Below are positions 5,357-41,805 of a stretch of DNA of 64,000 bases, piece after piece. The stretch comes from a virus, in the IMG/VR virus record IMGVR_UViG_3300028909_000017, positions 32,001 through 96,000 of that record, one strand, 5' to 3'. Numbering within the stretch: the stretch's first letter is position 1; the number at the start of each line of letters is the position of its first letter. Both the position numbers and the translations under genes were made by a program. The notes under the pieces were generated by a model. The model was not told where the DNA came from and made no database searches. It saw only the letters and a list, made by a program, of their open reading frames with translations.

Positions 5357-6682
5357 TTACCTTTCAAACCAAATTTTAATTTGCACAAGAGCAACGGCCT
5401 GTTCTTTTGTTGTTATTACTCCATCGAGCTGAGCCGTTTCTACAGCTTCCAACAAAATTTTAAAATTGGGACCTGGCTTCATTCCCATTTCAATTAGATC
5501 ATTACCAGTGAGCAATCTTTCGGGTCTCAATTCTTCCGGGGCCATACTTTCCAGAAAATTTTTGCAAAAATCATGATCGGTCAAATTGCCATTGCTGCCG
5601 AGACTGTCAAATTTATTAAGTTCAAGCAATTCACTAAAGTTGTCTGAACGAACAAATCTTTTCAATTTCGAAACATTCATGTGCGACGTATTAAAAAATC
5701 GCATATGGTTTGCAACCAGATCCGTCACGGTATCGACAACTTCGTTTGAAAATCGAAGATCGCGTAATGTATTTTTGGTCATCTTTGCTCCAACATGTTC
5801 ATGACCAAAAAATTGATTATGTCCAGTTGACGGATTACGCTTTGCTGTTACAGGCTTTCCCACGTCGTGAAAAAGTACGCCAAGCGCGAGGGTCAGAGAA
5901 CAATTGGGCTTCAAAAAGGAAAGCATTTTCAATGTATGATTCCACACATTTCCTTCCGGGTGCCATTTTTCATTCTGATCTACACCACGCATCCTGCAAA
6001 AATCAGGCAAAACATACTGAAGAATACCGGTTTCATCGAACAATTTAAATGCAACATCAACATTACCTCCAGTAAGAATCTTGCTTAATTCACCAGCGAT
6101 ACGATCGGCGGGCAATGTTTTAACGGACGATGCAAATTCTGTAATTGCGGCTTTTGTTTCTGATTCGATTGTAAATCCCAATCGAGCAGCGAATCGTACT
6201 GCCCGAAGCAAACGCAATGCATCTTCTTTGAAACGATTCTTTGGATTCCCTACCGTTCTTACTACCTTGTTATTGAGATCATCCAATCCGCCAACAAAAT
6301 CAAATACCTTGCCATTTTTATCCATAAGCAAAGCATTGATTGAAAAATCGCGTCTCAAAACATCTTCTTTGGGATCGTTGGTAAATTTTACGGAATCTGG
6401 ACGGCGTGAGTCAGAATAACTGCCATCTAACCGAAATGTCGCAGTTTCGAATTCATCACCATTCATTTTTACGAGTGATACACCAAAATTCTCCCCAACA
6501 AATTTTGATCCAGGGAAAATTTTAGCAACCTGATCGGGAGTAGCGGAGGTCGTGATGTCGTAATCATGCACCGGCAGATCGAGCAATGTATCTCGTACAC
6601 CCCCGCCAGCCAAGAAAGAGGTAAATCCTTCATTTTCAAGAATTTGCATTACTTTCATCGCATTGTTTTTGGTTGTCATCAT
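5357..6682 (-). CDS. cca: CCA-adding tRNA nucleotidyltransferase with HD domain
   Basis: GG.VRD.LL....DYDI, RRDFSINA, F.EDALRLLRAVRF, HPEG.VW.HT and HDVGKP motifs; several phage tRNAs here lack an encoded CCA. Confidence 0.92.
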   Translation of the reverse strand: MMTTKNNAMKVMQILENEGFTSFLAGGGVRDTLLDLPVHDYDITTSATPDQVAKIFPGSKFVGENFGVSLVKMNGDEFETATFRLDGSYSDSRRPDSVKFTNDPKEDVLRRDFSINALLMDKNGKVFDFVGGLDDLNNKVVRTVGNPKNRFKEDALRLLRAVRFAARLGFTIESETKAAITEFASSVKTLPADRIAGELSKILTGGNVDVAFKLFDETGILQYVLPDFCRMRGVDQNEKWHPEGNVWNHTLKMLSFLKPNCSLTLALGVLFHDVGKPVTAKRNPSTGHNQFFGHEHVGAKMTKNTLRDLRFSNEVVDTVTDLVANHMRFFNTSHMNVSKLKRFVRSDNFSELLELNKFDSLGSNGNLTDHDFCKNFLESMAPEELRPERLLTGNDLIEMGMKPGPNFKILLEAVETAQLDGVITTKEQAVALVQIKIWFER

Positions 6683-6962
6683 TCCCTCACTCACAAATAT
6701 AGTATAGCAATTTTTGGTTTAATTGTCAACCGATTTAATTATTTTTCTCTACGGTACTGAGATAGAACACACTTCCGAACCCGCGTTCAGAATCGTGCTC
6801 AGTCGTTTGCCGGGTGATTTTAACAAGTCCTTTGTCTAACAAATTATTACGTGCATTAACGAGCCGCCCTCCAAAAGGACGTCTTTTAATGATCCCGTGC
6901 TCAATGTTTGCGTAGCCTTTCTTTTCAATTTCATCCATAATCATCTGTTCTGTCTTATTAAT

Positions 6963-12362: not shown

Positions 12363-12656
12363 TAAATAATGTATCCTTTTAATCTTAATTATTAATTCTA
12401 TGGTTAAATGATTTTTCGATTAAATCACCGCATGTTAGACATGTATTGTGAAAGTATTCCACCGAACCATCAGAATGTGCAGTTCCATAAAAATTGGCTG
12501 AAATATTTACGATGTTGGTAAGTTTCCATTTTGTTCCGTCATATGTATGAATATGAGGGGTAGTTGTTTCGATTAGACCCCAGAGTATTTTCATTATTTT
12601 ATCTCCATTATTAAAAAAGGCAGGCATATGCCTGCCTTTTTTAAGAGTAATTTAAA

Positions 12657-13151
12657 TTACTTTGCAGCTTCAACTGCAATGCGATTTGAAATCTTTGAAG
12701 AATGGGCAATGGCCTTTGCACGAATACTACCAGCCTTTGCGGCGCGGGCAGAGTTTACAATCGTATTGACCAGCGTCGATGACTCGGATGGGGTTTCTGA
12801 TTCAACCTTTGGTGTCTTTACAGCCTTCACCTTGGGTGTGGCAACCTTCTTTTCCTTCGGAACCTTAATTGCCTTCACCTTAGGTACCTTGGGAGTATTT
12901 GCCGCCACAATTGCGGTTTCCTTCTCTTCTATAGCTTGAAGATTAACTCCCTCGGGAGTATTTGCCTTAAGATATGCAATGGCGTCAATCTTTGTCATTG
13001 GTTCGGGGAGGTCAACGAGAACAATTTCGGAATTTCCGGCACGTTCAAGCATCTTCAGGCGTGTTTTACGATCATTGGCGAAACGTGCCTTGTAAGAGCC
13101 TTCAAAAAGTGCTGAACCTGCAAGTGCATAAAGCTTATTATCAATAGCCAT
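12657..13151 (-). CDS. Basic Lys/Ala-rich putative DNA-binding protein
   Basis: Globular N-terminus (KARFAND...LPEPMTK) plus histone-H1-like PKVK/KA tail; own promoter, and terminator hairpin at 12614-12641. Confidence 0.55.
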   Translation of the reverse strand: MAIDNKLYALAGSALFEGSYKARFANDRKTRLKMLERAGNSEIVLVDLPEPMTKIDAIAYLKANTPEGVNLQAIEEKETAIVAANTPKVPKVKAIKVPKEKKVATPKVKAVKTPKVESETPSESSTLVNTIVNSARAAKAGSIRAKAIAHSSKISNRIAVEAAK

Positions 13152-21016: not shown

Positions 21017-22108
21017 TTAATCCTCTCGAAATGTTTCAGTTGATTTGGGTTCAATTAATTTCCAGATGGTATTAGATACATCTTTCCCATCTAACAAACC
21101 AAATAAAATTGCTGAATAATATTTGTGATCTGATTGCAAGAAATATCTAGCAATGTCCTTACGTGTAGAGAATACTGGCATACGATCAAAAATTCGTTGT
21201 GCATCCGTTAGAATTGTGTAGTAATCACCATCTAATTGAGAATTCCATTTTCGTAGCCAGGTTATAAATCCTGACGGCATTTTAGGATCGGTTAGCCAAG
21301 ATGAAATTTCATCATCCTTGCTCTCTTTTTTCAATTCCCAAATGCTACGGGGATTTAATCCAGTTAAAATTCTATGGAGCTCGCAATAATTTTCGAATTT
21401 TAACTTTACTTTAAGACCATTGTCGAAAGTTGCGACATACCCTTCTTGGTTGGGAATATTTTCACTCATGCAGGTATTCAATAATTTTTTATGATCTTGC
21501 ACAAGTTTAAGATTCATTGCTTGACAATAGGATTTTAAATCTGAACGAGATAATTCTTTACCGGTTGAATTATTAATTGCCCCGATAACAATTAGTCCCT
21601 CAAAATCATATTCAACAACAATACGATTTTCGGGATAAATTATTTCGGTTAAAAGAGTATATTCTTTTAATAAATCAAGTCGGGGATAATTTTTTTGTAA
21701 CCAATTAGTTGCCCACAATGATTGATCGCTCGCAAATGATCCACGTGTTGCAACATAATTTTGATCTTCCCATTTATATAAAATTCCCAGAGAACCATCC
21801 ATTTTTGTCGTAATCGAAGAAATATTAGTGGGTAGATTTTTTTCTAAAGTTTCAGGATGCCGATCATCATTAATGTTCCAAAATTTTGGAAACGGCCTAG
21901 CGATAATTTCCATTGTTTCAGTATTAAAAATTAACCCTCGGCAGATGTTCATTTCCTGACCCCAAACCAAATCTTTATCATATTGAGCGGTTGGGGTATA
22001 ATTTAAAATTGCGAGAGGGAATGAAGAATGAAATTTCCTCGAAATTTGGCGAGAATTTATCAATGATTCAAGTATATCGATATCTAAGATTTCATTTAAT
22101 TTCGTCAT
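21017..22108 (-). CDS. T4-type RNA ligase 1 (Rnl1/RnlA family)
   Basis: CRGLI, PF.KFWN, motif I KMDGS, EGYV, KLKFE.Y. Confidence 0.88.
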   Translation of the reverse strand: MTKLNEILDIDILESLINSRQISRKFHSSFPLAILNYTPTAQYDKDLVWGQEMNICRGLIFNTETMEIIARPFPKFWNINDDRHPETLEKNLPTNISSITTKMDGSLGILYKWEDQNYVATRGSFASDQSLWATNWLQKNYPRLDLLKEYTLLTEIIYPENRIVVEYDFEGLIVIGAINNSTGKELSRSDLKSYCQAMNLKLVQDHKKLLNTCMSENIPNQEGYVATFDNGLKVKLKFENYCELHRILTGLNPRSIWELKKESKDDEISSWLTDPKMPSGFITWLRKWNSQLDGDYYTILTDAQRIFDRMPVFSTRKDIARYFLQSDHKYYSAILFGLLDGKDVSNTIWKLIEPKSTETFRED

Positions 22109-22234: not shown

Positions 22235-23199
22235 TCATTCTTCTAATTTTTTTATTAATTCTTTGCTTTGTTCGATTTTGAAAAGTTCTACTGCCTTTAA
22301 CCCCCAATTCGGATCTTCCAACCATTCAATCGGCAATTTAAATTCATATCCACGCAAATAATTAATAATTATATAACTACTGTAAAATTTAATATCTATA
22401 ACGCCTATAACATCCGAGCCTTTTAAACGACTCCATATGTAACCTAAAGTTTTAAATCGAAGTTCTTGCCACTCCATATAAATTTGTGAAGCCCGATCTT
22501 CTATTGATTTCTTTCTTAGAAGAAAAGATCGATATGAACCTATAGTTGTTAGCTTATTCTGATAATTTTTCGATGAGAGCATCATTTTGAATTTCCACTA
22601 GATAATTTTTTAGATTTAATTCCCAATTATTATCATTCAACCATTCAATAGGAATTGGAATTTCGTATGGAGTATTTCTATTAATCCAAACGTAACTTCC
22701 TATAATTATTGATGTTTTTACAGGCGTTATTTCATATGTAATTTCCTGCGCCCAACAAATTTTTCGAATTATTTCAAGATATATTTGCTGCCAACGAATA
22801 TATAATTGCTCGGCTTTACGCAAATCACGTTTATTTTTACGCCAAATACGTACATTAGAAATTAAGGTATCTAATATCATTCTGCTAGTTTTTAACAAAT
22901 AATCGTTTTCTTTCACGCTCAAATCGTTTACGAAGCCAATCTTTCCAATTTGGATCACTTAAACAATGTTGCGGTATTTTAAGGGCTCCTTCTTTTCGGG
23001 CGTTAATGTAAACTTCTTTTTCATTATAGGTTATTGTGCGAATTGGAAAAATTGTTTTTTGGCTGTAATATCCTTTTCCTAAACCATGACCAACTTCTTC
23101 AAAACTGATTTTTTGCCAATCATTATAAATGATTTTTGAAATTTCTTTAATAATTTTATCATTTACAACTGTTTCTTGATAAGTTTTATCAGATATCAT
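22235..23199 (-). repeat. Three tandem paralogous ORFs (IY..WQ ... IP...L.D.NW)
   Basis: 22235-22585, 22554-22880 and 22885-23199 share motifs; they end ELIKKLEE, ALIEKLSE and (with one added A) LFVKKLAE. Confidence 0.7.
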
Positions 23200-24311
23200 T
23201 AAGATAAATCCTCTTCGGATGATTTATATTTCTGATTAAGCCATTTTAAATATAGCGGAAATCCACGTTTAGCAACTCTGGGAATTTCTGGAGCAATAAC
23301 AATTCCTTCTTTAATATGTAACTGCTTTCCAGATACTGTTTCCATACCGCCACTTAATTTTTCAAATACAGCGGGATCGAACGGTCCTCGATATAAAATA
23401 GGTACCCAATGTTGATTAATAAAATCATGCCCAAAATATTTTTCAACTTCATCAACCGAAAGTTCTCGACCATCAATTCTTAGTCGAAATAATTTAATAG
23501 TTGGAGATGTTTTCCCATAAGAAAAATTCTTTTGACACGGAATAACTTCCCCAATTAATTGTACATCGTGTTTGAATAAATAAAAATTCTCGGATTCAAC
23601 CCATTGGCATTGTATAAAATCAATTAATTTAGAATTTTCAAGTGCCTGCCAATATAAATTCTTTTCAGACCTTTCGATAATTTGATCTCTTGAATTAAAT
23701 CCTTTGCTTGAAACACCAATTTCCCCAGTTTTAGAAAAATAGGCATTTATTTGACTTCCATTAATTTTTTCCGAAACTATAACTTGCTCTTGTTTTCCAG
23801 TTGTGAATTCATCGGAAAACAGGCGGAATTGCTCGACATCGTGATGTGCTGCGGATGGTTCGAACTTAATTGAATCAAGGGAATTAATACTTCCTGCCAT
23901 ATTATAAGGAATTTGCGGTTCATATTTGTAAATATTAAGTTTTTCTGATAAGTCAATATTTAGAGGAATGTCATTAACCGAATCCCATTCAGGAACATTT
24001 TTCAGTACCCAATCAATAGGAATAGTAATTCCCTCGGAAAGTTCACCACGTAATCGAACCGATTTAACTCGATTTTTATCCGAACCAGAAAGATAACTAA
24101 TGCCTGTTTGGGAATTTACATATTCACTCTTAAGCGAATCCGGAAGAATAGCTCGTTCGGGAGCAAAGACAACTACATCCCCATTTTCATACTGTCCTTT
24201 TCCGACAACAAGTTGATGCATTCCAATTCGTCCAATTTGCATACGATCTGCATTCGGATGATCTAATAATTCAATTTTTGATCCAATAATTTCCCAAATA
24301 GCCATTTTCAT
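23199..24311 (-). CDS. RNA ligase, DRB0094 (Rnl5) family
   Basis: N-terminal HPNADR...VRLRGELSEG module, motif I EKINGS, GE, EGIV. Confidence 0.85.
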   Translation of the reverse strand: MKMAIWEIIGSKIELLDHPNADRMQIGRIGMHQLVVGKGQYENGDVVVFAPERAILPDSLKSEYVNSQTGISYLSGSDKNRVKSVRLRGELSEGITIPIDWVLKNVPEWDSVNDIPLNIDLSEKLNIYKYEPQIPYNMAGSINSLDSIKFEPSAAHHDVEQFRLFSDEFTTGKQEQVIVSEKINGSQINAYFSKTGEIGVSSKGFNSRDQIIERSEKNLYWQALENSKLIDFIQCQWVESENFYLFKHDVQLIGEVIPCQKNFSYGKTSPTIKLFRLRIDGRELSVDEVEKYFGHDFINQHWVPILYRGPFDPAVFEKLSGGMETVSGKQLHIKEGIVIAPEIPRVAKRGFPLYLKWLNQKYKSSEEDLS

Positions 24312-24622: not shown

Positions 24623-25558
24623 TTAAAAATTTCCAATAGCTCCGCAAAATTCACAGGTTTTCTTTTGATCAATTCCTACATTTGGACAATTTAATGAATG
24701 ATGTGGAGTTCCTCTTACTGGAATACACATCAATCCATTTTTCCTCCAGCAATCAGCAATAACGCGATTTCGGTCGTCAATTGTAAATTTAATTTGATCT
24801 TTTGGAACCATACCCAGTAATTCATTAAGAATCTCTTCTTTGATAATAAAATCGGATCGATTGTCCCAACCGTGCCTCATGAAAATATGATGAAAAGGAA
24901 TATTGTTCCGATTCATCCAATTTATTGTGGAATCACCACAGGTCGAATGTCTGCCAGAAACAAAGAAAATTGTATGATCTTCATAAAGACTTTGCACCCA
25001 TTTAACAATTACTGGATAAATTTTATCTTTTCCAACATGCAATTCATCATAAGGACTACGAATTCCATCTGAATTAGAAACTGTTCCATCAATATCGACC
25101 AAAATAATTGGTCTATTAATATCAAATGGTAATCTTTTACTCAGTAAAAATTGACGGGAGATTACTGCTCGCCCGACGTGTGATTTTCCAACCCGAATAT
25201 TATCGTTACGAACACAATCATCGAAACTTGTAGTCATGCGATGAATTCGAAAATTTACATTGTTACCAGCAAAATTTTCCCACGTTTTAACCGTATTTGG
25301 ATTTAGATGTGTATTATCTAATAGAATTGACTTGCCCTCTTTAAGGGCATCCGCCGCTCTAGATCTTTCAACTTGCGCAACGAATCTTTCGAATTTAAAA
25401 CCTGATGGGGCAGTTGGATCATTAACTAATTCGGTTCTTAAATCATCTCGATTTAATCGAATATAATTTGAATTTTTATTGACAAAATCTTTGGCGAATG
25501 TAGATTTTCCACTGCCTGATTCACCAATTAAAAGTAAAATTTCTTGACTGTTTAACAT
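24623..25558 (-). CDS. pseT: Polynucleotide 5'-kinase/3'-phosphatase (T4 PseT-like)
   Basis: GESGSGKST, NRDDLR, then HAD DIDGT, SGR and IDDR. Confidence 0.88.
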   Translation of the reverse strand: MLNSQEILLLIGESGSGKSTFAKDFVNKNSNYIRLNRDDLRTELVNDPTAPSGFKFERFVAQVERSRAADALKEGKSILLDNTHLNPNTVKTWENFAGNNVNFRIHRMTTSFDDCVRNDNIRVGKSHVGRAVISRQFLLSKRLPFDINRPIILVDIDGTVSNSDGIRSPYDELHVGKDKIYPVIVKWVQSLYEDHTIFFVSGRHSTCGDSTINWMNRNNIPFHHIFMRHGWDNRSDFIIKEEILNELLGMVPKDQIKFTIDDRNRVIADCWRKNGLMCIPVRGTPHHSLNCPNVGIDQKKTCEFCGAIGNF

Positions 25559-37425: not shown

Positions 37426-38506
37426 ATTTTTAACTTTCTTTTTCCATTGGATTTTTTGGTAAAGAATTTTTTCGACGCATGGAATGCATAGTCGTGATAT
37501 CGGTTAAAATAAACCAAATTAACCACCAATAAGATCCATGAATATATCCGAGAATATTTGCAAAGAAAAATAATGGAGAAAAAATCGGAAAAGCAAATAA
37601 AAATTTATCTTTGATGTGCTTTTGAATAATTCCAAAAGAAAAATGATCACAGATAAAAAATAGCAGGAGCCACCAGAATGATATATGAATAATTCCGGTA
37701 AATGTTGCAAGCAAAAATACTTCACTGAAATATGGAAATGCAAAAGTAATATTTTTCATTGTGAACCCTTTCTAGTAATGTTGAATAACTATTTCGTCAT
37801 TTAAAGTCAAAATTTTCATTCTATAATTTTCCTTAACAAATTCAGAAAATTCCGGGCACCAATCAGATTGATTATATTCAGCCCATTCACTATTGGTGAT
37901 TGTTAATTCTACAATTTCACCAATGGGATGGTTGCCATATCGATCTTTATACTCTTTATTTCTGCGCCTTACATATAAAGAAACAGTTTCTTGGGGCTCA
38001 TATGCAGGAGCGGTACCTTTAAAATTATCTCGAGTTGATAATTGAATAACGGCCTTATCACCATTTTTTACAATGTTGCAAAAGTTTTTAGCTAGAATAG
38101 ACATTTTATCCTCTGAGAACCATTTTTGTTCCATCTTCTTTAACGAAAACGGAGATATGTGTATTGTATACAGTTCGAAGCCCTCTTAATTCGGCCAAAT
38201 AATTTCTCAGTTCTAAATTTTCGTGGGAATATTTAGCGATTAATTCATCAAGGTGTTCATCAATTTTCATATGGATTCACCGTTCGTCATCATATGCGCC
38301 CCTCTCATAATGTTCTTCATTATATCCATCTCGGTCAAAACCATGTTCATCATACCCGTAAGAATCGAAGCCATCACGGTCATAAAGATCATCTTCATGC
38401 TCACAATTGCTGTGAAACCAATTTTGATCTTGTTCATATAAATCAAACACAGTTGGAGAATATTTTGCAATCGACATATGAATACCTCACTATTTAAAGT
38501 ATAGCA

Positions 38507-38540
38507 AAATGAGCAAGGTTTTGTCAACCTTGCTCATTTT
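38507..38540. terminator. Hairpin ending the tRNA operon, overlapping the next early promoter
   Basis: aaaatgagcaaggtt...aaccttgctcatttt. Confidence 0.6.
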
Positions 38541-38548
38541 AAAGTAGT

Positions 38549-38640
38549 TGGAGTCACTGGAGAGATTCGAACTCGCAAAATTACTTTCGTAATTCTAACG
38601 GTTTTGCAGACCGCGGGCTTGCCATTTTGCCTTCAGTGAC
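38549..38640 (-). tRNA. tRNA-Cys(GCA) with long variable arm
   Basis: GTCACTG/CAGTGAC, U73-CCA, GCGGT-CTGCAAA-ACCGT, V-arm AATTAC-GAAA-GTAATT. Confidence 0.85.
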
Positions 38641-38651
38641 CCAAAAATCAG

Positions 38652-38743
38652 CGGAAGTGGTAGGATTTGAACCTACGAAACCTGCTCTTCACAAGTTTAT
38701 TGATTTTCAAGATTAACGCCTTCAACCACTCGGCCACACTTCC
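38652..38743 (-). tRNA. tRNA-Ser(TGA)
   Basis: GGAAGTG/CACTTCC, loop CTTGAAA, long V-arm, G73, no CCA. Confidence 0.85.
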
Positions 38744-38749
38744 AAATTT

Positions 38750-38839
38750 CGGATGGGGTGGGATTCGAACCCACGAAACCCATTAAATAGGTTTGATAGT
38801 TTTCGAGACTATTGTCGTAAACCACTTGACTACCCATCC
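38750..38839 (-). tRNA. tRNA-Ser(CGA)
   Basis: ATAGT-CTCGAAA-ACTAT, long V-arm, G73. Confidence 0.9.
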
Positions 38840-38869
38840 ATGAAACATATTTCCTAATACTAATCTTTT

Positions 38870-38961
38870 CGGAGAGTACTCGACTTGAACGAGTACATGT
38901 CGATGTTATCAACATGAGCCGGTTTTCCAAACCGGGGCGATACCATTCCGCTCAACTCTCC
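38870..38961 (-). tRNA. tRNA-Ser(GGA)
   Basis: CCGGT-TTGGAAA-ACCGG, long V-arm, G73. Confidence 0.9.
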
Positions 38962-39073
38962 ATTTTGATTCCCTTTGCAACATTCTTGATTATGCTGAAA
39001 TAGCCGGGGGAAGTAATGGCATTCGCATTCGCAAATTTTTTGATCTGTCATTCTTTTTCTCCTTTTTTAAGAT

Positions 39074-39160
39074 CGGATAGTGCAAGATTCGAACTTGCGA
39101 AACCTTTCGGTTTAACACCTTAGCAGGGTGTCGATATAAGCCAGACTCATCCAACTATCC
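39074..39160 (-). tRNA. tRNA-Ser(GCT)
   Basis: ACACC-CTGCTAA-GGTGT, long V-arm, G73. Confidence 0.9.
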
Positions 39161-39475
39161 ATAAGTTTACTTTCTGATTTTATTTCTTTCTCGGTCAAAA
39201 ATTTCTGTACTATCAGGTGAGATTTCACCACTTTGAATTAATGTACGGGCCCCACCCAAATCGTGACACTTTCTCCTTGCCAATTCATTATCAATATTTT
39301 TCTTTTGGGACTGTAATGAATTTCTTTCAGTGATTAATTCTTTTAATTGATTTTCCAAAGAATTAATTGATTCATTGAGTCTATTAATTTCATTTGAAAA
39401 CCGAACACCTTCTTGACATAACGTGCCGAGTGTGATATTTTCGTGCATTATTGTTACCTTTCTTTAATTGTTGGG

Positions 39476-39547
39476 CAGGAGAGCCGATGGTCGAAATCGG
39501 AAGTTCGGTTTTGGAGACCGACAGTTTGCCACTTAGCTTACTCTCCT
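39476..39547 (-). tRNA. tRNA-Trp(CCA)
   Basis: AGGAGAG/CTCTCCT, TCGGT-CTCCAAA-ACCGA. Confidence 0.85.
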
Positions 39548-39556
39548 ACGAATTGT

Positions 39557-39641
39557 TGGTAGCCCCACTCAGATTTGAACTGAGACGCCTTAAAGACATT
39601 AGTTCCTAAGACTAACGTGTCTTCCGTTCCACCATGGGGCC
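39557..39641 (-). tRNA. tRNA-Leu(TAG)
   Basis: TTAGT-CTTAGGA-ACTAA, V-arm, A73-CCA. Confidence 0.9.
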
Positions 39642-39669
39642 ACGTTTAAAAATATACTTCGAATAATTT

Positions 39670-39765
39670 TGGTGCAAGCAACTGGTGTCGAACCAGCAAT
39701 ATTAACTCACTATGGAGGACAGATTTACAGTCTGCTGCGACTAACCAACTATTCGCCTTACTTGC
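39670..39765 (-). tRNA. tRNA-Tyr(GTA)
   Basis: GCAGA-CTGTAAA-TCTGT, long V region, A73-CCA. Confidence 0.85.
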
Positions 39766-39783
39766 ATTTACAACTAAACTTTT

Positions 39784-39861
39784 TGGTGCCCGGAGTGGAA
39801 CTCGAATCCACACTGGAAGGATTTTGAGTCCTTTGCCTCCTGCCAATTGGGCTACCCGGGC
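39784..39861 (-). tRNA. tRNA-Leu(CAA) with short variable loop
   Basis: AAGGA-CTCAAAA-TCCTT, V-loop only CCAGT, A73-CCA. Confidence 0.88.
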
Positions 39862-39863
39862 AC

Positions 39864-39903
39864 AATATAAAAACCCTGAATGATTATGTCATCCAGGGTT
39901 TTT
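39864..39903 (-). terminator. Attenuator terminator upstream of the tRNA operon
   Basis: ACCCTGGATGA-CATAA-TCATTCAGGGT followed by TTTTATATT; the 5' arm can alternatively pair with CGTCCAGG in the leader ORF. Confidence 0.8.
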
Positions 39904-39925
39904 GTTTTCCGATTTAACATCGATT

Positions 39926-40015
39926 TTAACAATTACCTGGACGCATCAAACTCCAATAGAGCAGAGAATAATCTAATGAACATAAACTTGCCGAATTGGA
40001 TTTTGAAAAAGTCAT
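39926..40015 (-). CDS. Putative attenuator leader peptide MTFSKSNSASLCSLDYSLLYWSLMRPGNC
   Basis: RBS AGGA, 29 codons: 7 Ser, 5 Leu, 2 Tyr, 2 Cys, 1 Trp, matching the downstream tRNA set. Confidence 0.75.
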   Translation of the reverse strand: MTFSKSNSASLCSLDYSLLYWSLMRPGNC

Positions 40016-40108
40016 TTTATTTCCTAAATTAAACGTGTGTTACTGTTCGCTTTTGATTATCATTAATTTACATTACTGATCGCTGTTTCACTTATTAATC
40101 AACTACAT

Positions 40109-40142
40109 TATTTATATTACATTGTTATTTAGTCTTTGTCAA
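40109..40142 (-). promoter_or_regulatory. Dual promoter of the tRNA operon (sigma70-like plus T4-type late)
   Basis: TTGACA-17 bp-TAATAT with overlapping TATAAATA. Confidence 0.7.
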
Positions 40143-40160
40143 GAGAAAAATGAAGAATTT

Positions 40161-40667
40161 TCATAAAATATCGACATTTTTATAATATCGATAAGCCGGC
40201 TTTACAAATCCTTTATTTTTCCATTGTTTACGGTTATTATTAACCCATTCAAAATTAATCGAATTATTTTCAATAATGATTTGTGTTATTTCACCCGAAT
40301 TAATTTTAGATTCTACGGTATTTTTAATAATGTCAATTCCATTTTGATCGGTTATTTTAAAACCGTATCCACCTGATTGTAATAATCTTTCGATCCAAAT
40401 TACTGATCTATGGGAAATTATAGAATTATTTATAATTAATTTTCTATTGGCTTCCAATAAACATATTGCCAATATAGTTAGTAGACCTGCAATTGTGCTC
40501 TGGGTATTAATTTGAAAAATTTGTCTTGATTCATTACCGATATTGCAATCAATCGTAATATTTGCCAAACTATTTTCATTTTTATCTTCAATGAAATAAT
40601 TTTCATACGAATCTTCTTTTTCAATCCAAATTATGTTACCTTCAAAAGTTGTAAATTGATTTTTCAT
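40161..40667 (-). CDS. Hypothetical protein, paralog of 40670-41200
   Basis: Shared GL..., W...L..SGG.G.KI..Q and I.I motifs. Confidence 0.55.
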   Translation of the reverse strand: MKNQFTTFEGNIIWIEKEDSYENYFIEDKNENSLANITIDCNIGNESRQIFQINTQSTIAGLLTILAICLLEANRKLIINNSIISHRSVIWIERLLQSGGYGFKITDQNGIDIIKNTVESKINSGEITQIIIENNSINFEWVNNNRKQWKNKGFVKPAYRYYKNVDIL

Positions 40668-40669
40668 AA

Positions 40670-41200
40670 TTATTTAAGAAATATAGTTGTTGGGCCGGCT
40701 TCTGATTCGTTTGTGCGCAATTTATTTCGAGCTTTGAGCCATTCTGCATATAAATCATTTGAATCGGGAAATTCATCATATTGATTAGATATTTTAATTC
40801 CGCGGCCTCCGGATTTAACTAATTTGATTAGCCAGACAATTCCGCTTTCGGTTAATCCCTCTTTATTATCAATTTTAAAATATTTTCCTTTTTCTAATAA
40901 CGATTTGATAATAATTGTTATTAATCCTTTAATTCTATTTTTTGGATCCTTGTTTTTCAATGTTAAATTTTCGACGCGTATCAATGTATAGCATTTATTC
41001 ACCATCGGTAGTAAAACTCCGATATACGCCATCAAATGTTTGTTATGATCTACAATTACAAACATATCTTTAATTTGAAAAATTTTATGACCATTTGCAA
41101 TTGCAACTGGCTTTTTACCATCTATATATGTTGGGTTCCATAAGATTTCTGGTATTTCATCTGCGACATCTAGCTCTTTTAAAATTTCTTTTATTTTCAT
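40670..41200 (-). CDS. Hypothetical protein with MKIKEI N-terminus
   Basis: Paralog of 40161; LTESG..W motif recalls the 58-61 kb family. Confidence 0.55.
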   Translation of the reverse strand: MKIKEILKELDVADEIPEILWNPTYIDGKKPVAIANGHKIFQIKDMFVIVDHNKHLMAYIGVLLPMVNKCYTLIRVENLTLKNKDPKNRIKGLITIIIKSLLEKGKYFKIDNKEGLTESGIVWLIKLVKSGGRGIKISNQYDEFPDSNDLYAEWLKARNKLRTNESEAGPTTIFLK

Positions 41201-41617
41201 ATTAATTTTTATAGGCCAAGTTCTTTTTTAAGGGTTTCAAGTTGATTTAATTTTTCTTGACGCTGGTTTAATTTTTTAACTTGGGTTGTCTCTTCCAAAT
41301 ATTGTTGCGCAGCTCTCACCGAATCTTTTGCGGTAAAAATATTAATCGGTAAGGTAATATGATTTGTCCAATCACTACCACGACAATATCCGCCATATTC
41401 AATCAAAACAAATTTACCTTCGGATTCAACCGAAAGTATCGAGCAATGATCGATGCCGAAAATTTTTAAAATCGGCATGATTTGTTTATCCCGAGCTTCT
41501 TTTGCATCGGATAATTTTGTGTTGGCAATCCAAATTTTTTCGTTCAATTTATTGATATTGATCATATTTGTCTTTCAATATTTAAATTATAGCATATGCG
41601 TAGGCAAAAAGTCAAGA

Positions 41618-41651
41618 AAAATGGGGTCGGATATTAAATCCGACCCCATTT
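41618..41651. terminator. Intrinsic terminator after the long fibre gene
   Basis: aaatggggtcggat...atccgaccccattt. Confidence 0.7.
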
Positions 41652-41805
41652 GTTAAAATTTCGGTTTATTTAACTCGAAGTGCTGAAATTTGTTACCACC
41701 CATCACCGGCTAATGAAGCGCATGACTCATGGCCTAATAGTGCCTCATCCCTTCCGTCTCAGCAACAGCAGACTGCCTAAGTAGCGAACTCTCCGCTCTG
41801 TCAGT

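What the first reader, a model, noticed from the sequence alone, without database searches (positions are those of the whole stretch)
39864..40142. Leader-peptide attenuator that appears to sense the very tRNAs the phage encodes downstream
Seen: a promoter (TTGACA-17-TAATAT plus TATAAATA), an RBS and a 29-codon ORF (40015-39926, MTFSKSNSASLCSLDYSLLYWSLMRPGNC) too short for the ORF track. It is followed by a U-tailed terminator that ends a few nt before tRNA-Leu(CAA). In codons 10-23 (SLCSLDYSLLYWSL), 13 of 14 specify Ser/Leu/Cys/Tyr/Trp, exactly the amino acids of the nine downstream tRNAs. The Ser codons (TCA, TCC, TCG, AGT, TCT) cover all four encoded Ser isoacceptors, and TTG/CTG match the two Leu tRNAs. 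CGTCCAGG at codons 25-27 is complementary to CCTGGATG in the terminator 5' arm, giving a mutually exclusive antiterminator. Established: this is the logic of trp/his/pheST-type ribosome-mediated attenuation. Inference: ribosome stalling after tRNA depletion (for example by host anticodon nucleases) frees the antiterminator and induces the replacement tRNA operon, i.e. an on-demand multi-tRNA sensor. I do not know of this being described for phage tRNA arrays.
Basis: partly seen in the sequence, partly recalled or inferred. Interest (0 to 1): 0.92.

Follow-up and report, generated by a model that had tools for sequence, protein, structure and literature searches.

The report
Codon-matched leader attenuator gating phage tRNAs
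A tiny translated reading frame and a switchable transcription stop sit in front of nine phage tRNA genes, and the frame is written mostly in the codons those tRNAs read, so the phage probably makes these tRNAs only when ribosomes are slow at those codons.

Summary
On the minus strand there is a promoter, an RBS, a 29-codon ORF (40015-39926), a strong intrinsic terminator (39898-39869), and tRNA-Leu(CAA) 7 nt later.

Statistics:
- 17 of 29 residues are Ser/Leu/Cys/Tyr/Trp, the five amino acids of the nine tRNAs behind it. Only this ORF among 782 short ORFs of the genome reaches that.
- 0 of 17,926 windows of real proteins reach it, and 3-6 of 5000 open shuffles.
- The antiterminator pairing is equalled in 7 of 2000 shuffles.
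- Among 13 good terminators of the genome, the two next to tRNA genes have the two lowest shuffle counts.

I found no orthologues, so conservation of this element is untested. The same architecture does recur in other phages:
- an IMG/VR contig (L007) and its relative (L046);
- Cellulophaga phage phi10:1;
- Cellulophaga phage phi17:2, three times, each leader matching its own tRNA block.

The true leader-to-array assignment is matched by 2 of 362,880 permutations.

Best reading: a ribosome-mediated, multivalent attenuator that senses how well the array's own codons are decoded. The anticodon-nuclease trigger remains speculation. My literature searches found no published account. This scan noted the same kind of element before on other phage DNA.

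The parts
40114..40142 (-). Sigma-70-type promoter: TTGACA, 17 nt, TAATAT, with TG two bases before the -10 hexamer
   Evidence: It belongs to a class of 23 TTGACA-N16-18-TANNNT sites on the minus strand. 20 of the 23 lie outside ORFs of 80 aa or more, against 8 sites on the plus strand. No other site of this class lies between it and the end of the array.
40016..40106 (-). 5' untranslated leader of about 90 nt, if transcription starts about 7 nt after the -10 hexamer (inferred). It contains AGGA at 40025-40022.
   Evidence: SD-like motifs precede 34 of 72 large ORFs of this genome, against 8% of random positions. An RNA-library contig covers 39940-40068 at depth 21.9 and runs into a sequencing adapter at 40068.
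39926..40015 (-). Leader ORF, 29 codons plus TAA
   Evidence: No Pfam or PHROG family.
39947..40006 (-). Regulatory codons 4-23. 16 of these 20 are Ser, Leu, Cys, Tyr or Trp. The stretch also folds as an imperfect hairpin (codons 4-8 with 19-24).
39936..39946 (-). Antiterminator 5' strand. The core CGTCCAGG is at 39943-39936 (codons 25-27), preceded by 3 more pairing bases.
   Evidence: It pairs with 39897-39890 at -14.2 kcal/mol. It is present in the minimum-energy fold of the nascent RNA and is worth -12.8 kcal/mol there.
39899..39935 (-). ORF end (codons 28-29 and stop) and spacer with two small nested hairpins enclosed by the antiterminator helix; ends in an A-tract
39869..39898 (-). Intrinsic terminator: 10-bp stem, 5-nt loop, five U
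   Evidence: Hairpin -13.6 kcal/mol. It is present in the full-length minimum-energy fold.
38549..39861 (-). Controlled array: tRNA-Leu(caa), Tyr, Leu(tag), Trp, a 93-aa ORF (39448-39167), Ser(gct), Ser(gga), Ser(cga), Ser(tga), Cys
38505..38541 (-). Hairpin that closes the unit right after tRNA-Cys. The next TTGACA-class promoter is embedded in it.

Best explanation
This is a ribosome-mediated, multivalent transcription attenuator that gates the nine-tRNA array.

Proposed mechanism:
1. RNA polymerase starts at the promoter (40142-40114) and transcribes the leader.
2. A ribosome translates the 29-codon ORF.
3. If Ser, Leu, Cys, Tyr and Trp codons are decoded quickly, the ribosome reaches codons 23-30. 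There it covers the segment at 39946-39936. The terminator hairpin then forms and transcription stops 7 nt before tRNA-Leu.
4. If any of these codons is decoded slowly, the ribosome stalls at codons 4-19. The segment stays free and pairs with the terminator's 5' arm, and polymerase runs into the array.

The result is feedback on the supply of exactly the tRNAs encoded downstream.

What is shown: the parts, their statistics, the alternative folds, and the covariation of leader and array in other phages.

What is inferred: that the ORF is translated, that transcription and translation are coupled, that the hairpin terminates, and the direction of the response.
For: 1. Codon match. 17 of 29 residues are cognate to the array. 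This is reached by 1 of 782 short ORFs, 0 of 17,926 windows of real proteins, and 3-6 of 5000 open shuffles.

2. Antiterminator. -14.2 kcal/mol, reached by 7 of 2000 shuffles and 14 of 3000 natural windows. Among 13 compact terminators on the minus strand, the two next to tRNA genes have the two lowest shuffle counts, 3 and 8 of 1000. The other eleven give 14 to 983 of 1000.

3. Geometry. In the nascent RNA the antiterminator holds 8 of 10 arm bases with no ribosome or with the A site at codons 8-19. It holds 5 at codon 21, and 0 at codon 23 or at the stop.

4. The promoter belongs to a recurrent intergenic class and is the only one of that class upstream of the array. SD use is real in this genome.

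5. The same architecture occurs elsewhere, with leaders that track their own arrays:
- L007: Phe, Tyr, Ser, Trp, Cys, Ser. 12 of 21 codons cognate, 0 of 5000 shuffles.
- L046: adds tRNA-Leu, and has 4 Leu codons where L007 has 1.
- L046, second unit: Pro, Ala.
- Cellulophaga phage phi17:2, three units. In the first, codons 4-14 are all cognate to Pro, Glu, Gln, His, Leu, Leu, Arg.
- Cellulophaga phage phi10:1.

By shuffle test, 7 of 9 leaders have at most 222 of 5000 shuffles reaching the observed count. 6 of 9 antiterminator partners have at most 16 of 1000. 2 of 362,880 re-assignments of leaders to arrays reach the true one.

6. In an RNA library the leader and the array are covered, while the genes upstream (40176-41700) are not (run X19). 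This is a weak hint only.
Against: - No orthologue of this element was found, so its own conservation is untested.
- Only 2 of 5 Leu codons are read by the array's Leu tRNAs by standard wobble. The two TTA codons need a tRNA encoded elsewhere.
- The Trp codon (21) and codons 22-23 lie so close to the antiterminator that a ribosome stalled there would cover part or all of it.
- Without any ribosome the fold is antiterminated. That differs from trp, where an untranslated leader terminates.
- At equilibrium the terminator state wins: -43.4 against -36.5 kcal/mol. The switch must therefore be kinetic.
- The paralogous element B upstream of tRNA-Ala(cgc) has no Ala enrichment: 2 of 51, with 2793 of 5000 shuffles reaching that.
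- Two of the nine elements lack a significant antiterminator partner (476 and 150 of 1000).
- The phi10:1 leader carries Ser and Cys codons with no Ser or Cys tRNA behind it.
- The RNA contigs show no 3' end at the terminator. The one discrete end, at 40068, does not fit the predicted start near 40107.
- I chose the ORFs and starts of elements E4-E9 by eye. No experiment exists.
Confidence: 0.7

Rival explanations
1. An ordinary, constitutive, leaky terminator separates two transcription units. The tRNAs are made by fixed read-through. The small ORF is untranslated or irrelevant, and its composition is a coincidence.
For: - Terminator-like hairpins also close the array (38541-38505) and end other genes.
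- Element B has a normal-looking 52-codon ORF with no Ala bias.
- The RNA contigs give no sign of regulated ends.
Against: - The composition is reached by 1 of 782 short ORFs and 3-6 of 5000 shuffles.
- The pairing is reached by 7 of 2000 shuffles.
- The same combination, with matched codon sets, recurs in four other genomes.
- A promoter placed directly before a plain terminator would be pointless (inference).
Confidence: 0.1
2. The promoter-to-terminator unit is a gene in its own right. It makes a roughly 240-nt small RNA or a 29-residue peptide with a function of its own, and the tRNAs lie behind it only by position.
For: - The leader is the best-covered piece of the stretch in one RNA library: depth 21.9 at 39940-40068.
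- Attenuator RNAs and leader peptides with a second role are in print for Sinorhizobium trpL (abstracts of PMC6614838 and 10.1101/606483, seen in the listings).
Against: - No Rfam family reaches its threshold. No Pfam or PHROG family for the peptide.
- Leader sequences in the other phages are not alike in sequence, only in composition and layout. That speaks for codons, not a peptide or RNA product, as the selected feature.
- This reading does not exclude attenuation.
Confidence: 0.1
3. It is a translation-independent RNA switch, for example direct binding of uncharged tRNA (T-box-like) or of a protein to the leader.
For: - A terminator/antiterminator pair is also the output stage of T-boxes and protein-dependent attenuators (established knowledge).
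- A 13-nt motif is shared exactly by elements A and B and occurs nowhere else in the genome. It could be a protein site.
Against: - No T-box or other cis-regulatory family was found at E up to 10, apart from a sub-threshold His_leader match.
- The codon match is in one reading frame, bounded by a start and a stop, with the stop placed 2-5 codons after the antiterminator strand in five of the nine elements. That only makes sense for a ribosome.
Confidence: 0.05
4. Chance: a random short ORF and a random complementarity next to a terminator.
For: - Only one genome carries this exact element.
- The amino-acid set and the 14-codon window were noticed after the fact.
Against: - The set is fixed beforehand by the downstream tRNAs.
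- Two independent signals lie at about 1e-3 each.
- The layout recurs in other phages.
Confidence: 0.03

Closest known systems
Multivalent leader-peptide attenuators of enterobacterial amino-acid operons (ilvGMEDA leader sensing Ile/Leu/Val; thr leader sensing Thr/Ile). Recalled textbook knowledge, not read here.
   Same: A short translated leader with a cluster of codons for several amino acids, an intrinsic terminator, and an alternative pairing that a stalled ribosome allows.
   Different: - The controlled genes here are tRNA genes, not enzymes.
- Five amino acids are sensed here, and up to about nine in phi17:2.
- The element is in a phage.
- The untranslated state is predicted to be antiterminated.
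- What is sensed is probably the supply of the tRNA itself, which closes a direct feedback loop.
trp, his and pheST attenuators; Rfam His_leader RF00514
   Same: The logic of ribosome position deciding between terminator and antiterminator. pheST also links tRNA charging to a translation-apparatus gene (recalled).
   Different: - There is no run of a single codon.
- The Rfam His_leader score is 26.3 bits against a gathering score of 49, and the match rests largely on the terminator, so this is not a member.
- No 1:2 hairpin competes with the antiterminator in this element. L007 does have one.
T-box riboswitches (recalled)
   Same: They sense tRNA status and act through a terminator/antiterminator choice.
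   Different: T-boxes bind uncharged tRNA directly and need no translation. No T-box match was found here, and the signal here is a reading frame.
The silent 26-gene tRNA operon of Anabaena PCC 7120, induced under translational stress (PMC8421152, passages searched; PMC10272220, abstract read)
   Same: An accessory tRNA array that is off by default and is switched on when translation is impaired.
   Different: It is controlled by a protein repressor, TrcR (abstract). The 2021 paper's main text has 0 occurrences of 'attenuat', 'leader peptide' or 'terminator'. It is a bacterial megaplasmid, not a phage.

Membership tests
Leader-peptide (ribosome-mediated) transcription attenuators | Promoter followed by a short ORF with a translation start signal | tested here: met
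   Promoter at 40142-40114, of a class of 23 sites. AGGA lies 6 nt before the ATG. The ORF has 29 codons. SD use is real in this genome: 34 of 72 large ORFs against 8% of random positions.
Leader-peptide (ribosome-mediated) transcription attenuators | Cluster of codons for the regulating amino acid(s) in the leader | tested here: met
   17 of 29 residues cognate. Reached by 1 of 782 short ORFs, 0 of 17,926 protein windows, and 3-6 of 5000 shuffles.
Leader-peptide (ribosome-mediated) transcription attenuators | Intrinsic terminator between the leader and the controlled genes | tested here: met
   10-bp stem, -13.6 kcal/mol, five U, ending 7 nt before the first tRNA.
Leader-peptide (ribosome-mediated) transcription attenuators | Antiterminator that excludes the terminator and that a ribosome at the end of the ORF would mask | tested here: met
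   (computed folds only).
Leader-peptide (ribosome-mediated) transcription attenuators | Anti-antiterminator (1:2) or pause hairpin that makes the untranslated leader terminate | tested here: not met
   The hairpin within the ORF (40005-39947) does not overlap the antiterminator. With no ribosome the antiterminator forms.
Leader-peptide (ribosome-mediated) transcription attenuators | Read-through rises when the cognate aminoacyl-tRNA is limiting and depends on translation of the leader | not testable with these tools
   Needs reporter, Term-seq or coupled in-vitro assays.
Rfam His_leader (RF00514) | Score at or above the family's gathering threshold (49 bits) | tested here: not met
   26.3 bits; E 0.19 over 3 kb and 0.02 over 321 nt.
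   Cross matrix of nine leaders by nine arrays. The true assignment is the maximum, and 2 of 362,880 permutations reach it. After column centring the own array ranks first for 5 of 9 leaders; the other ranks are 2, 2, 4 and 5.

The most novel reading that the evidence does not exclude
Phages of unrelated lineages put their tRNA blocks under 'spell-checked' attenuators. The lineages seen here are this peat phage, whose promoters are sigma-70-type and whose genes use SD motifs, and phages of marine Bacteroidota. Each block sits behind a tiny test ORF written in the codons that the block decodes. tRNA genes are then transcribed only when those codons are read slowly. That would make phage tRNA supply a self-correcting, demand-driven loop. 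It would also give the phage a built-in alarm for loss of host tRNAs, whether by host shut-off or by tRNA-cutting defences. The alarm would act beside this phage's own tRNA repair kit (PNKP, two RNA ligases, CCA-adding enzyme).
Probability: 0.55. Interest if true: 0.9.

Novelty: new variant of a known kind. Interest (0 to 1): 0.85.

Why it matters
Why phages carry tRNA genes, and when they use them, is an open question. An attenuator whose sensor is written in the array's own codons would show two things. Expression of the array would be tied to decoding demand, and tRNA genes, not only amino-acid and synthetase genes, could be controlled by leader-peptide attenuation.

The idea is directly testable. 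Cellulophaga phages phi17:2 and phi10:1 are cultured and carry the same layout. The element of this window uses a sigma-70-type promoter and an SD, so it may be testable in an E. coli reporter.

It would also re-annotate many 'hypothetical' mini-ORFs in phage tRNA regions. For example, gp077 of phi17:2 lies in the frame of one such leader.

Tried and rejected
Relatives of this phage
- blastn of 39400-40700 against 50,697 phage records gave 8 records, all short tRNA-only matches.
- The upstream tRNA-Leu context in Vibrio phage phiKT1024 is unrelated.
- Viral-contig scans with the upstream 168-aa protein, a tRNA-Leu 22-mer and the Rnl1-like ligase found nothing.
- The protein search for the 168-aa protein found only itself: 1 of 40 candidates, on 18 contigs.
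- tblastn with the baseplate-J-like protein gave only 24-27% coverage hits in small Mu-like phages.
- The search of earlier findings found no look-alike stretches.

Pattern scans
None of the 120 elements I screened has a forward-strand tRNA starting within about 110 nt after the element. So no relative was found that way, and the scan was not exhaustive.
- The same pattern without its last two letters in viral contigs gave 31 loci, of which only L007 has a tRNA array directly behind the terminator. Three loci have tRNAs before it, and four have a tRNA-Tyr 270-350 nt after it, which I did not follow.
- A tRNA-Tyr 23-mer found only the two Cellulophaga phages again.
- The relatives of L007's neighbour protein gave one useful locus out of four.

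Reads
- The four runs laid were contigs only.
- The two DNA runs held pieces identical to the window plus foreign tRNA look-alikes, so they gave no diverged copies.
- The stretch 39827-39939 has no cover in the RNA run X19. That proves nothing.

Rfam
- Only a sub-threshold His_leader match.
- A promoter-like site overlapping the terminator (39892-39864) would start inside the tRNA. I rejected it.

Element B
- No Ala enrichment.
- Against the wider set of tRNAs that follow it (Ala, Phe, Asn, Leu, Pro, Asp, Lys, Ile) it scores 33 of 51, reached by 11 of 1500 mononucleotide shuffles. It is depleted in the Ser/Leu/Cys/Tyr/Trp set: 5 of 51, with 9 of 1500 shuffles as low.
- That wider set was chosen after reading note e1-6169735. 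It includes an Asn tRNA that I did not verify.
- A similar set without Asn gave 169 of 782 short ORFs.
- I therefore do not count B as codon-matched.

Literature
- Searches, read as listings and abstract starts only.
- Passages read in PMC3082878, PMC8421152 and PMC2965389. Abstract and outline read of PMC10272220.
- None describes leader-peptide attenuation of tRNA genes in a phage.
- Subscription journals, older scans and supplements were not searched, so 'not in print' holds only for these searches.
Full report
WHAT IS THERE

The window is bases 32001-96000 of a single 125,414-bp contig. The contig has 34% G+C and carries 29 tRNA genes, all on the minus strand. Public runs that hold the stretch are peat metagenomes.

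On the minus strand, upstream of the nine-tRNA block at 39861-38549, I read the following:
- TTGACA (40142-40137), 17 nt, TAATAT (40119-40114).
- AGGA (40025-40022), 6 nt before an ATG.
- A 29-codon ORF (40015-39926).
- A hairpin with a 10-bp stem and a 5-nt loop (39898-39874), then five T (39873-39869).
- After 7 more bases, tRNA-Leu(CAA).

The consensus scan missed the hairpin. I infer that this is because its A-tract pairs with its T-tract. My own scan scores it -13.6 kcal/mol.

The array is closed right after tRNA-Cys by another hairpin (38541-38505), which carries the next promoter.

IS IT MORE THAN CHANCE?

Composition. The ORF has 17 of 29 residues from Ser, Leu, Cys, Tyr and Trp. That set is fixed beforehand by the tRNAs behind it.
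- Of 782 ATG ORFs of 20-60 codons in all six frames of the contig (mean fraction 0.26, sd 0.09), only this one reaches 0.59, or 13 of 14 in a window.
- None of 17,926 windows of 29 residues in the 72 large minus-strand ORFs does. The binomial tail at the proteome frequency of 0.233 is 4.7e-5.
- The ORF is T-rich (37 of 90 bases), which explains part of the signal. Even so, only 6 of 5000 and 3 of 5000 open dinucleotide shuffles of the ORF itself reach the count, and 32 of 5000 mononucleotide shuffles.

Pairing. The segment at 39943-39936 pairs with the terminator's 5' arm at -14.2 kcal/mol.
- 7 of 2000 shuffles of the upstream 120 nt and 14 of 3000 natural windows of the genome do as well.
- I repeated this for all 13 compact terminators on the minus strand. 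The two next to tRNA genes gave 3 and 8 of 1000, the lowest two counts. The other eleven gave 14, 103, 273, 281, 286, 404, 462, 503, 858, 964 and 983 of 1000.

Promoter and RBS.
- TTGACA-N16-18-TANNNT occurs 23 times on the minus strand, 20 of them outside ORFs of 80 aa or more, against 8 times on the plus strand. The leader's promoter is one of these. No other site of the class lies between it and the end of the array.
- SD-like motifs precede 34 of 72 large ORFs, against 8% of random positions.

HOW THE FOLDS BEHAVE

The full leader folds with the terminator: -43.4 kcal/mol over 40035-39864. The 244-nt version has z = -2.2.

The nascent RNA lacks the 3' arm. It folds with an 8-bp antiterminator plus 3 further pairs that enclose two small hairpins. 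This is worth -12.8 kcal/mol.

I masked about 30 nt to model a ribosome:
- A site at codons 8, 12, 16 or 19: the antiterminator keeps 8 of the 10 arm bases.
- A site at codon 21: 5 bases.
- A site at codon 23 or at the stop: 0 bases.

So a ribosome that finishes the ORF favours termination, and one stalled in codons 4-19 favours read-through.

Two departures from the trp model:
- With no ribosome at all the antiterminator forms.
- The hairpin inside the ORF (codons 4-8 with 19-24) does not compete with it.

The switch must be kinetic, because the terminator state is about 7 kcal/mol better at equilibrium.

RELATIVES AND A PARALOGUE

Within the genome, outside the window, a second unit (B, L003 about 12631-12842, minus strand) precedes tRNA-Ala(cgc). 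It consists of:
- a 52-codon ORF;
- a 6-bp partner of the terminator's 5' arm placed directly after the stop (8-9 of 1000 shuffles);
- a terminator with the same core;
- the tRNA about 25 nt later.

A and B share an exact 13-nt motif found nowhere else in the genome. Both lie behind members of a four-member protein family without any Pfam match.

B has no Ala bias. A wider set of the following tRNAs scores 33 of 51 (11 of 1500 shuffles), but I chose that set after the fact.

THE SAME LAYOUT IN OTHER PHAGES

A pattern made from the cores shared by A and B found 31 viral loci. One of them, L007, has a tRNA array directly behind the terminator.

L007 (IMG/VR contig):
- A 22-codon ORF (684-752), a terminator, and 3 nt after its U-tract Phe, Tyr, Ser, Trp, Cys, Ser.
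- Codons 5-14 are all cognate. 12 of 21 overall, with 0 of 5000 shuffles reaching that.

L046 (its relative, 50% identity in a neighbouring protein):
- A 23-codon leader with four Leu codons, before Phe, Tyr, Trp, Cys and Leu(tag). Two Ser-like tRNAs there are read by eye only.
- L007 has one Leu codon and no Leu tRNA.
- The partner pairing is -16.3 kcal/mol, with 0 of 1000 shuffles.
- A second unit precedes Pro and Ala, with 7 of 35 codons Ala or Pro (204 of 5000 shuffles).

Cellulophaga phage phi17:2 (NC_021798.1) was reached by tRNA similarity. It has three units:
- L047 3019-3087, before Pro, Glu, Gln, His, Leu, Leu, Arg. Codons 4-14 are all cognate, and each of the seven tRNAs is represented.
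- L037 164-247, in the frame of the annotated gp077, before Ala, Lys, Ile, Gly, Met, Asp, Thr, Val, Arg, Met. 19 of 26 codons were cognate as scored without Lys (4 of 5000 shuffles).
- L037 1723-1821, before Tyr, Ser, Asn, Trp, Phe. 16 of 31 cognate as scored with Cys in the set, taken from the record's tRNA-Pseudo, whose anticodon I read by eye (19 of 5000 shuffles).

Cellulophaga phage phi10:1 has a 21-codon leader (L038 1388-1453) before Tyr, a Trp-like gene read by eye, and Phe. Its Ser and Cys codons have no tRNA behind them.

Across all nine elements:
- Shuffle counts for the codon match are 3, 2793, 0, 222, 204, 82, 4, 19 and 691 of 5000.
- Shuffle counts for the partner pairing are 4, 9, 77, 0, 11, 11, 476, 150 and 16 of 1000. 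The eighth drops to 14 with a longer arm.
- In four of the short leaders the partner sits at nucleotides 50-59 of the ORF, 3-4 codons before the stop, and the hairpin starts 25-36 nt after the stop.
- Re-assigning the nine leaders to the nine arrays, the true assignment gives the highest sum. Only 2 of 362,880 permutations reach it (from the matrix).
- Several arrays are alike and some of these modules may share ancestry, so the nine are not fully independent. The three units of phi17:2 have quite different sets, and there the true assignment scores 1.77 against 0.53-1.10 for the other five.
- I picked ORFs and starts in the other phages by eye, which is a source of bias.

The Bacteroidota-type promoter box that I see just before those ATGs is named from recall, not from a call.

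RNA DATA

Only contigs were available.
- In RNA run X19, pieces identical to the window cover 38849-39175, 39434-39826 and 39940-40068 (depths 3-22). Nothing covers the genes upstream (40176-41700).
- The last piece runs into a sequencing adapter at 40068. That suggests a discrete end there, not at the predicted start near 40107.
- DNA carry-over cannot be excluded, and contigs cannot show termination.
- I treat this as a weak hint that the leader is transcribed.

CONTEXT

The phage encodes:
- a CCA-adding enzyme (5357-6694);
- an Rnl1-like ligase (21017-22108) and a second RNA ligase (23199-24311);
- a polynucleotide kinase-phosphatase (24623-25558).

This is the kind of kit T4 uses to mend cut tRNA (recalled). 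It fits a phage that meets tRNA damage. It does not show that the attenuator responds to it.

WHAT IT IS LIKE, AND WHAT IT IS NOT

It works like the multivalent leader-peptide attenuators of the ilv and thr operons (recalled).

It is not a member of Rfam His_leader: 26.3 bits against a threshold of 49.

It differs from all attenuators I know of in three ways:
- the controlled genes are tRNA genes;
- the sensed codons are those the controlled genes decode;
- the owner is a phage.

The nearest case in print that I could find is the Anabaena tRNA operon induced by translational stress. That operon is run by a protein repressor.

Eight literature searches and three papers searched for passages turned up no account of leader-peptide control of phage tRNA genes. 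Supplements and subscription journals were not seen.

EARLIER NOTES OF THIS SCAN

After I had found L007 and the Cellulophaga units, I looked up earlier notes. They report the same kind of element in other phages, and both A and B in this genome. They are AI notes, not independent evidence. They agree with what I found. They gave me the Anabaena lead and the idea of the wider set for B.

VERDICT

- The attenuator reading is supported by statistics, by fold geometry and by covariation in other phages.
- The nuclease trigger remains speculation.
- Translation, termination and the direction of the response remain to be shown at the bench.

Noticed in passing
L003 12631-12842 (genome 108630-108841, outside the window), minus strand: A second promoter-less unit (B) before tRNA-Ala(cgc). 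It has a 52-codon ORF, a partner of the terminator arm right after the stop, and a terminator with the same core as the window's. It shares an exact 13-nt motif with the window's promoter spacer. There is no Ala bias.
   Followed up: partly
window 38549-38640 and 39784-39861: tRNA-Cys(gca) has a long, hairpinned variable arm and U73, whereas tRNA-Leu(caa) has a short variable region. This is the reverse of the usual bacterial classes (recalled).
   Followed up: no
window 5357-6694, 21017-22108, 23199-24311, 24623-25558: A tRNA repair and maturation kit: CCA-adding enzyme, an Rnl1-like RNA ligase and a second RNA ligase, and a polynucleotide kinase-phosphatase.
   Followed up: partly
whole contig; in the window e.g. 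38527-38498, 40142-40114, 41615-41586: A uniform class of strong sigma-70-type promoters, often with an extended -10. There are 23 on the minus strand, 20 of them outside ORFs. Several share near-identical spacers.
   Followed up: partly
window 40161-40667, 40670-41200; L003 5054-5716 and 12882-13436: Four distant paralogues of a protein family. The three I scanned have no Pfam or PHROG match (the L003 5054-5716 member was not scanned). Two of them lie directly upstream of the two attenuator-like units.
   Followed up: partly
window 39940-40068: An RNA-library contig of depth 21.9 ends in a sequencing adapter exactly at 40068. This hints at a discrete RNA end 39 nt downstream of the predicted start.
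   Followed up: no
L009, L017, L021, L023 (viral contigs; coordinates): Four loci share a conserved stretch in which an upstream copy of the terminator's 3' arm precedes a terminator with the same core as here, with no tRNA nearby. This may be another attenuator family.
   Followed up: no
window 38860-39051: A 63-codon Cys-rich ORF inside the array overlaps tRNA-Ser(gga) (38869-38962), so it may not be a real gene.
   Followed up: no
L002 728-1813; L003 17127-18548; L004 3814-4902: The phage also carries a TnpB-like gene (OrfB_IS605 plus Cas12f1-like TNB domain), a nicotinamide phosphoribosyltransferase, and a cytidylyltransferase-Nudix protein.
   Followed up: no
L037 464-536 and L038 1614-1686: tRNA genes missing from the public records. 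ARAGORN calls a tRNA-Lys(ttt) in phi17:2. I read a Trp-like tRNA by eye in phi10:1; ARAGORN does not call it.
   Followed up: partly
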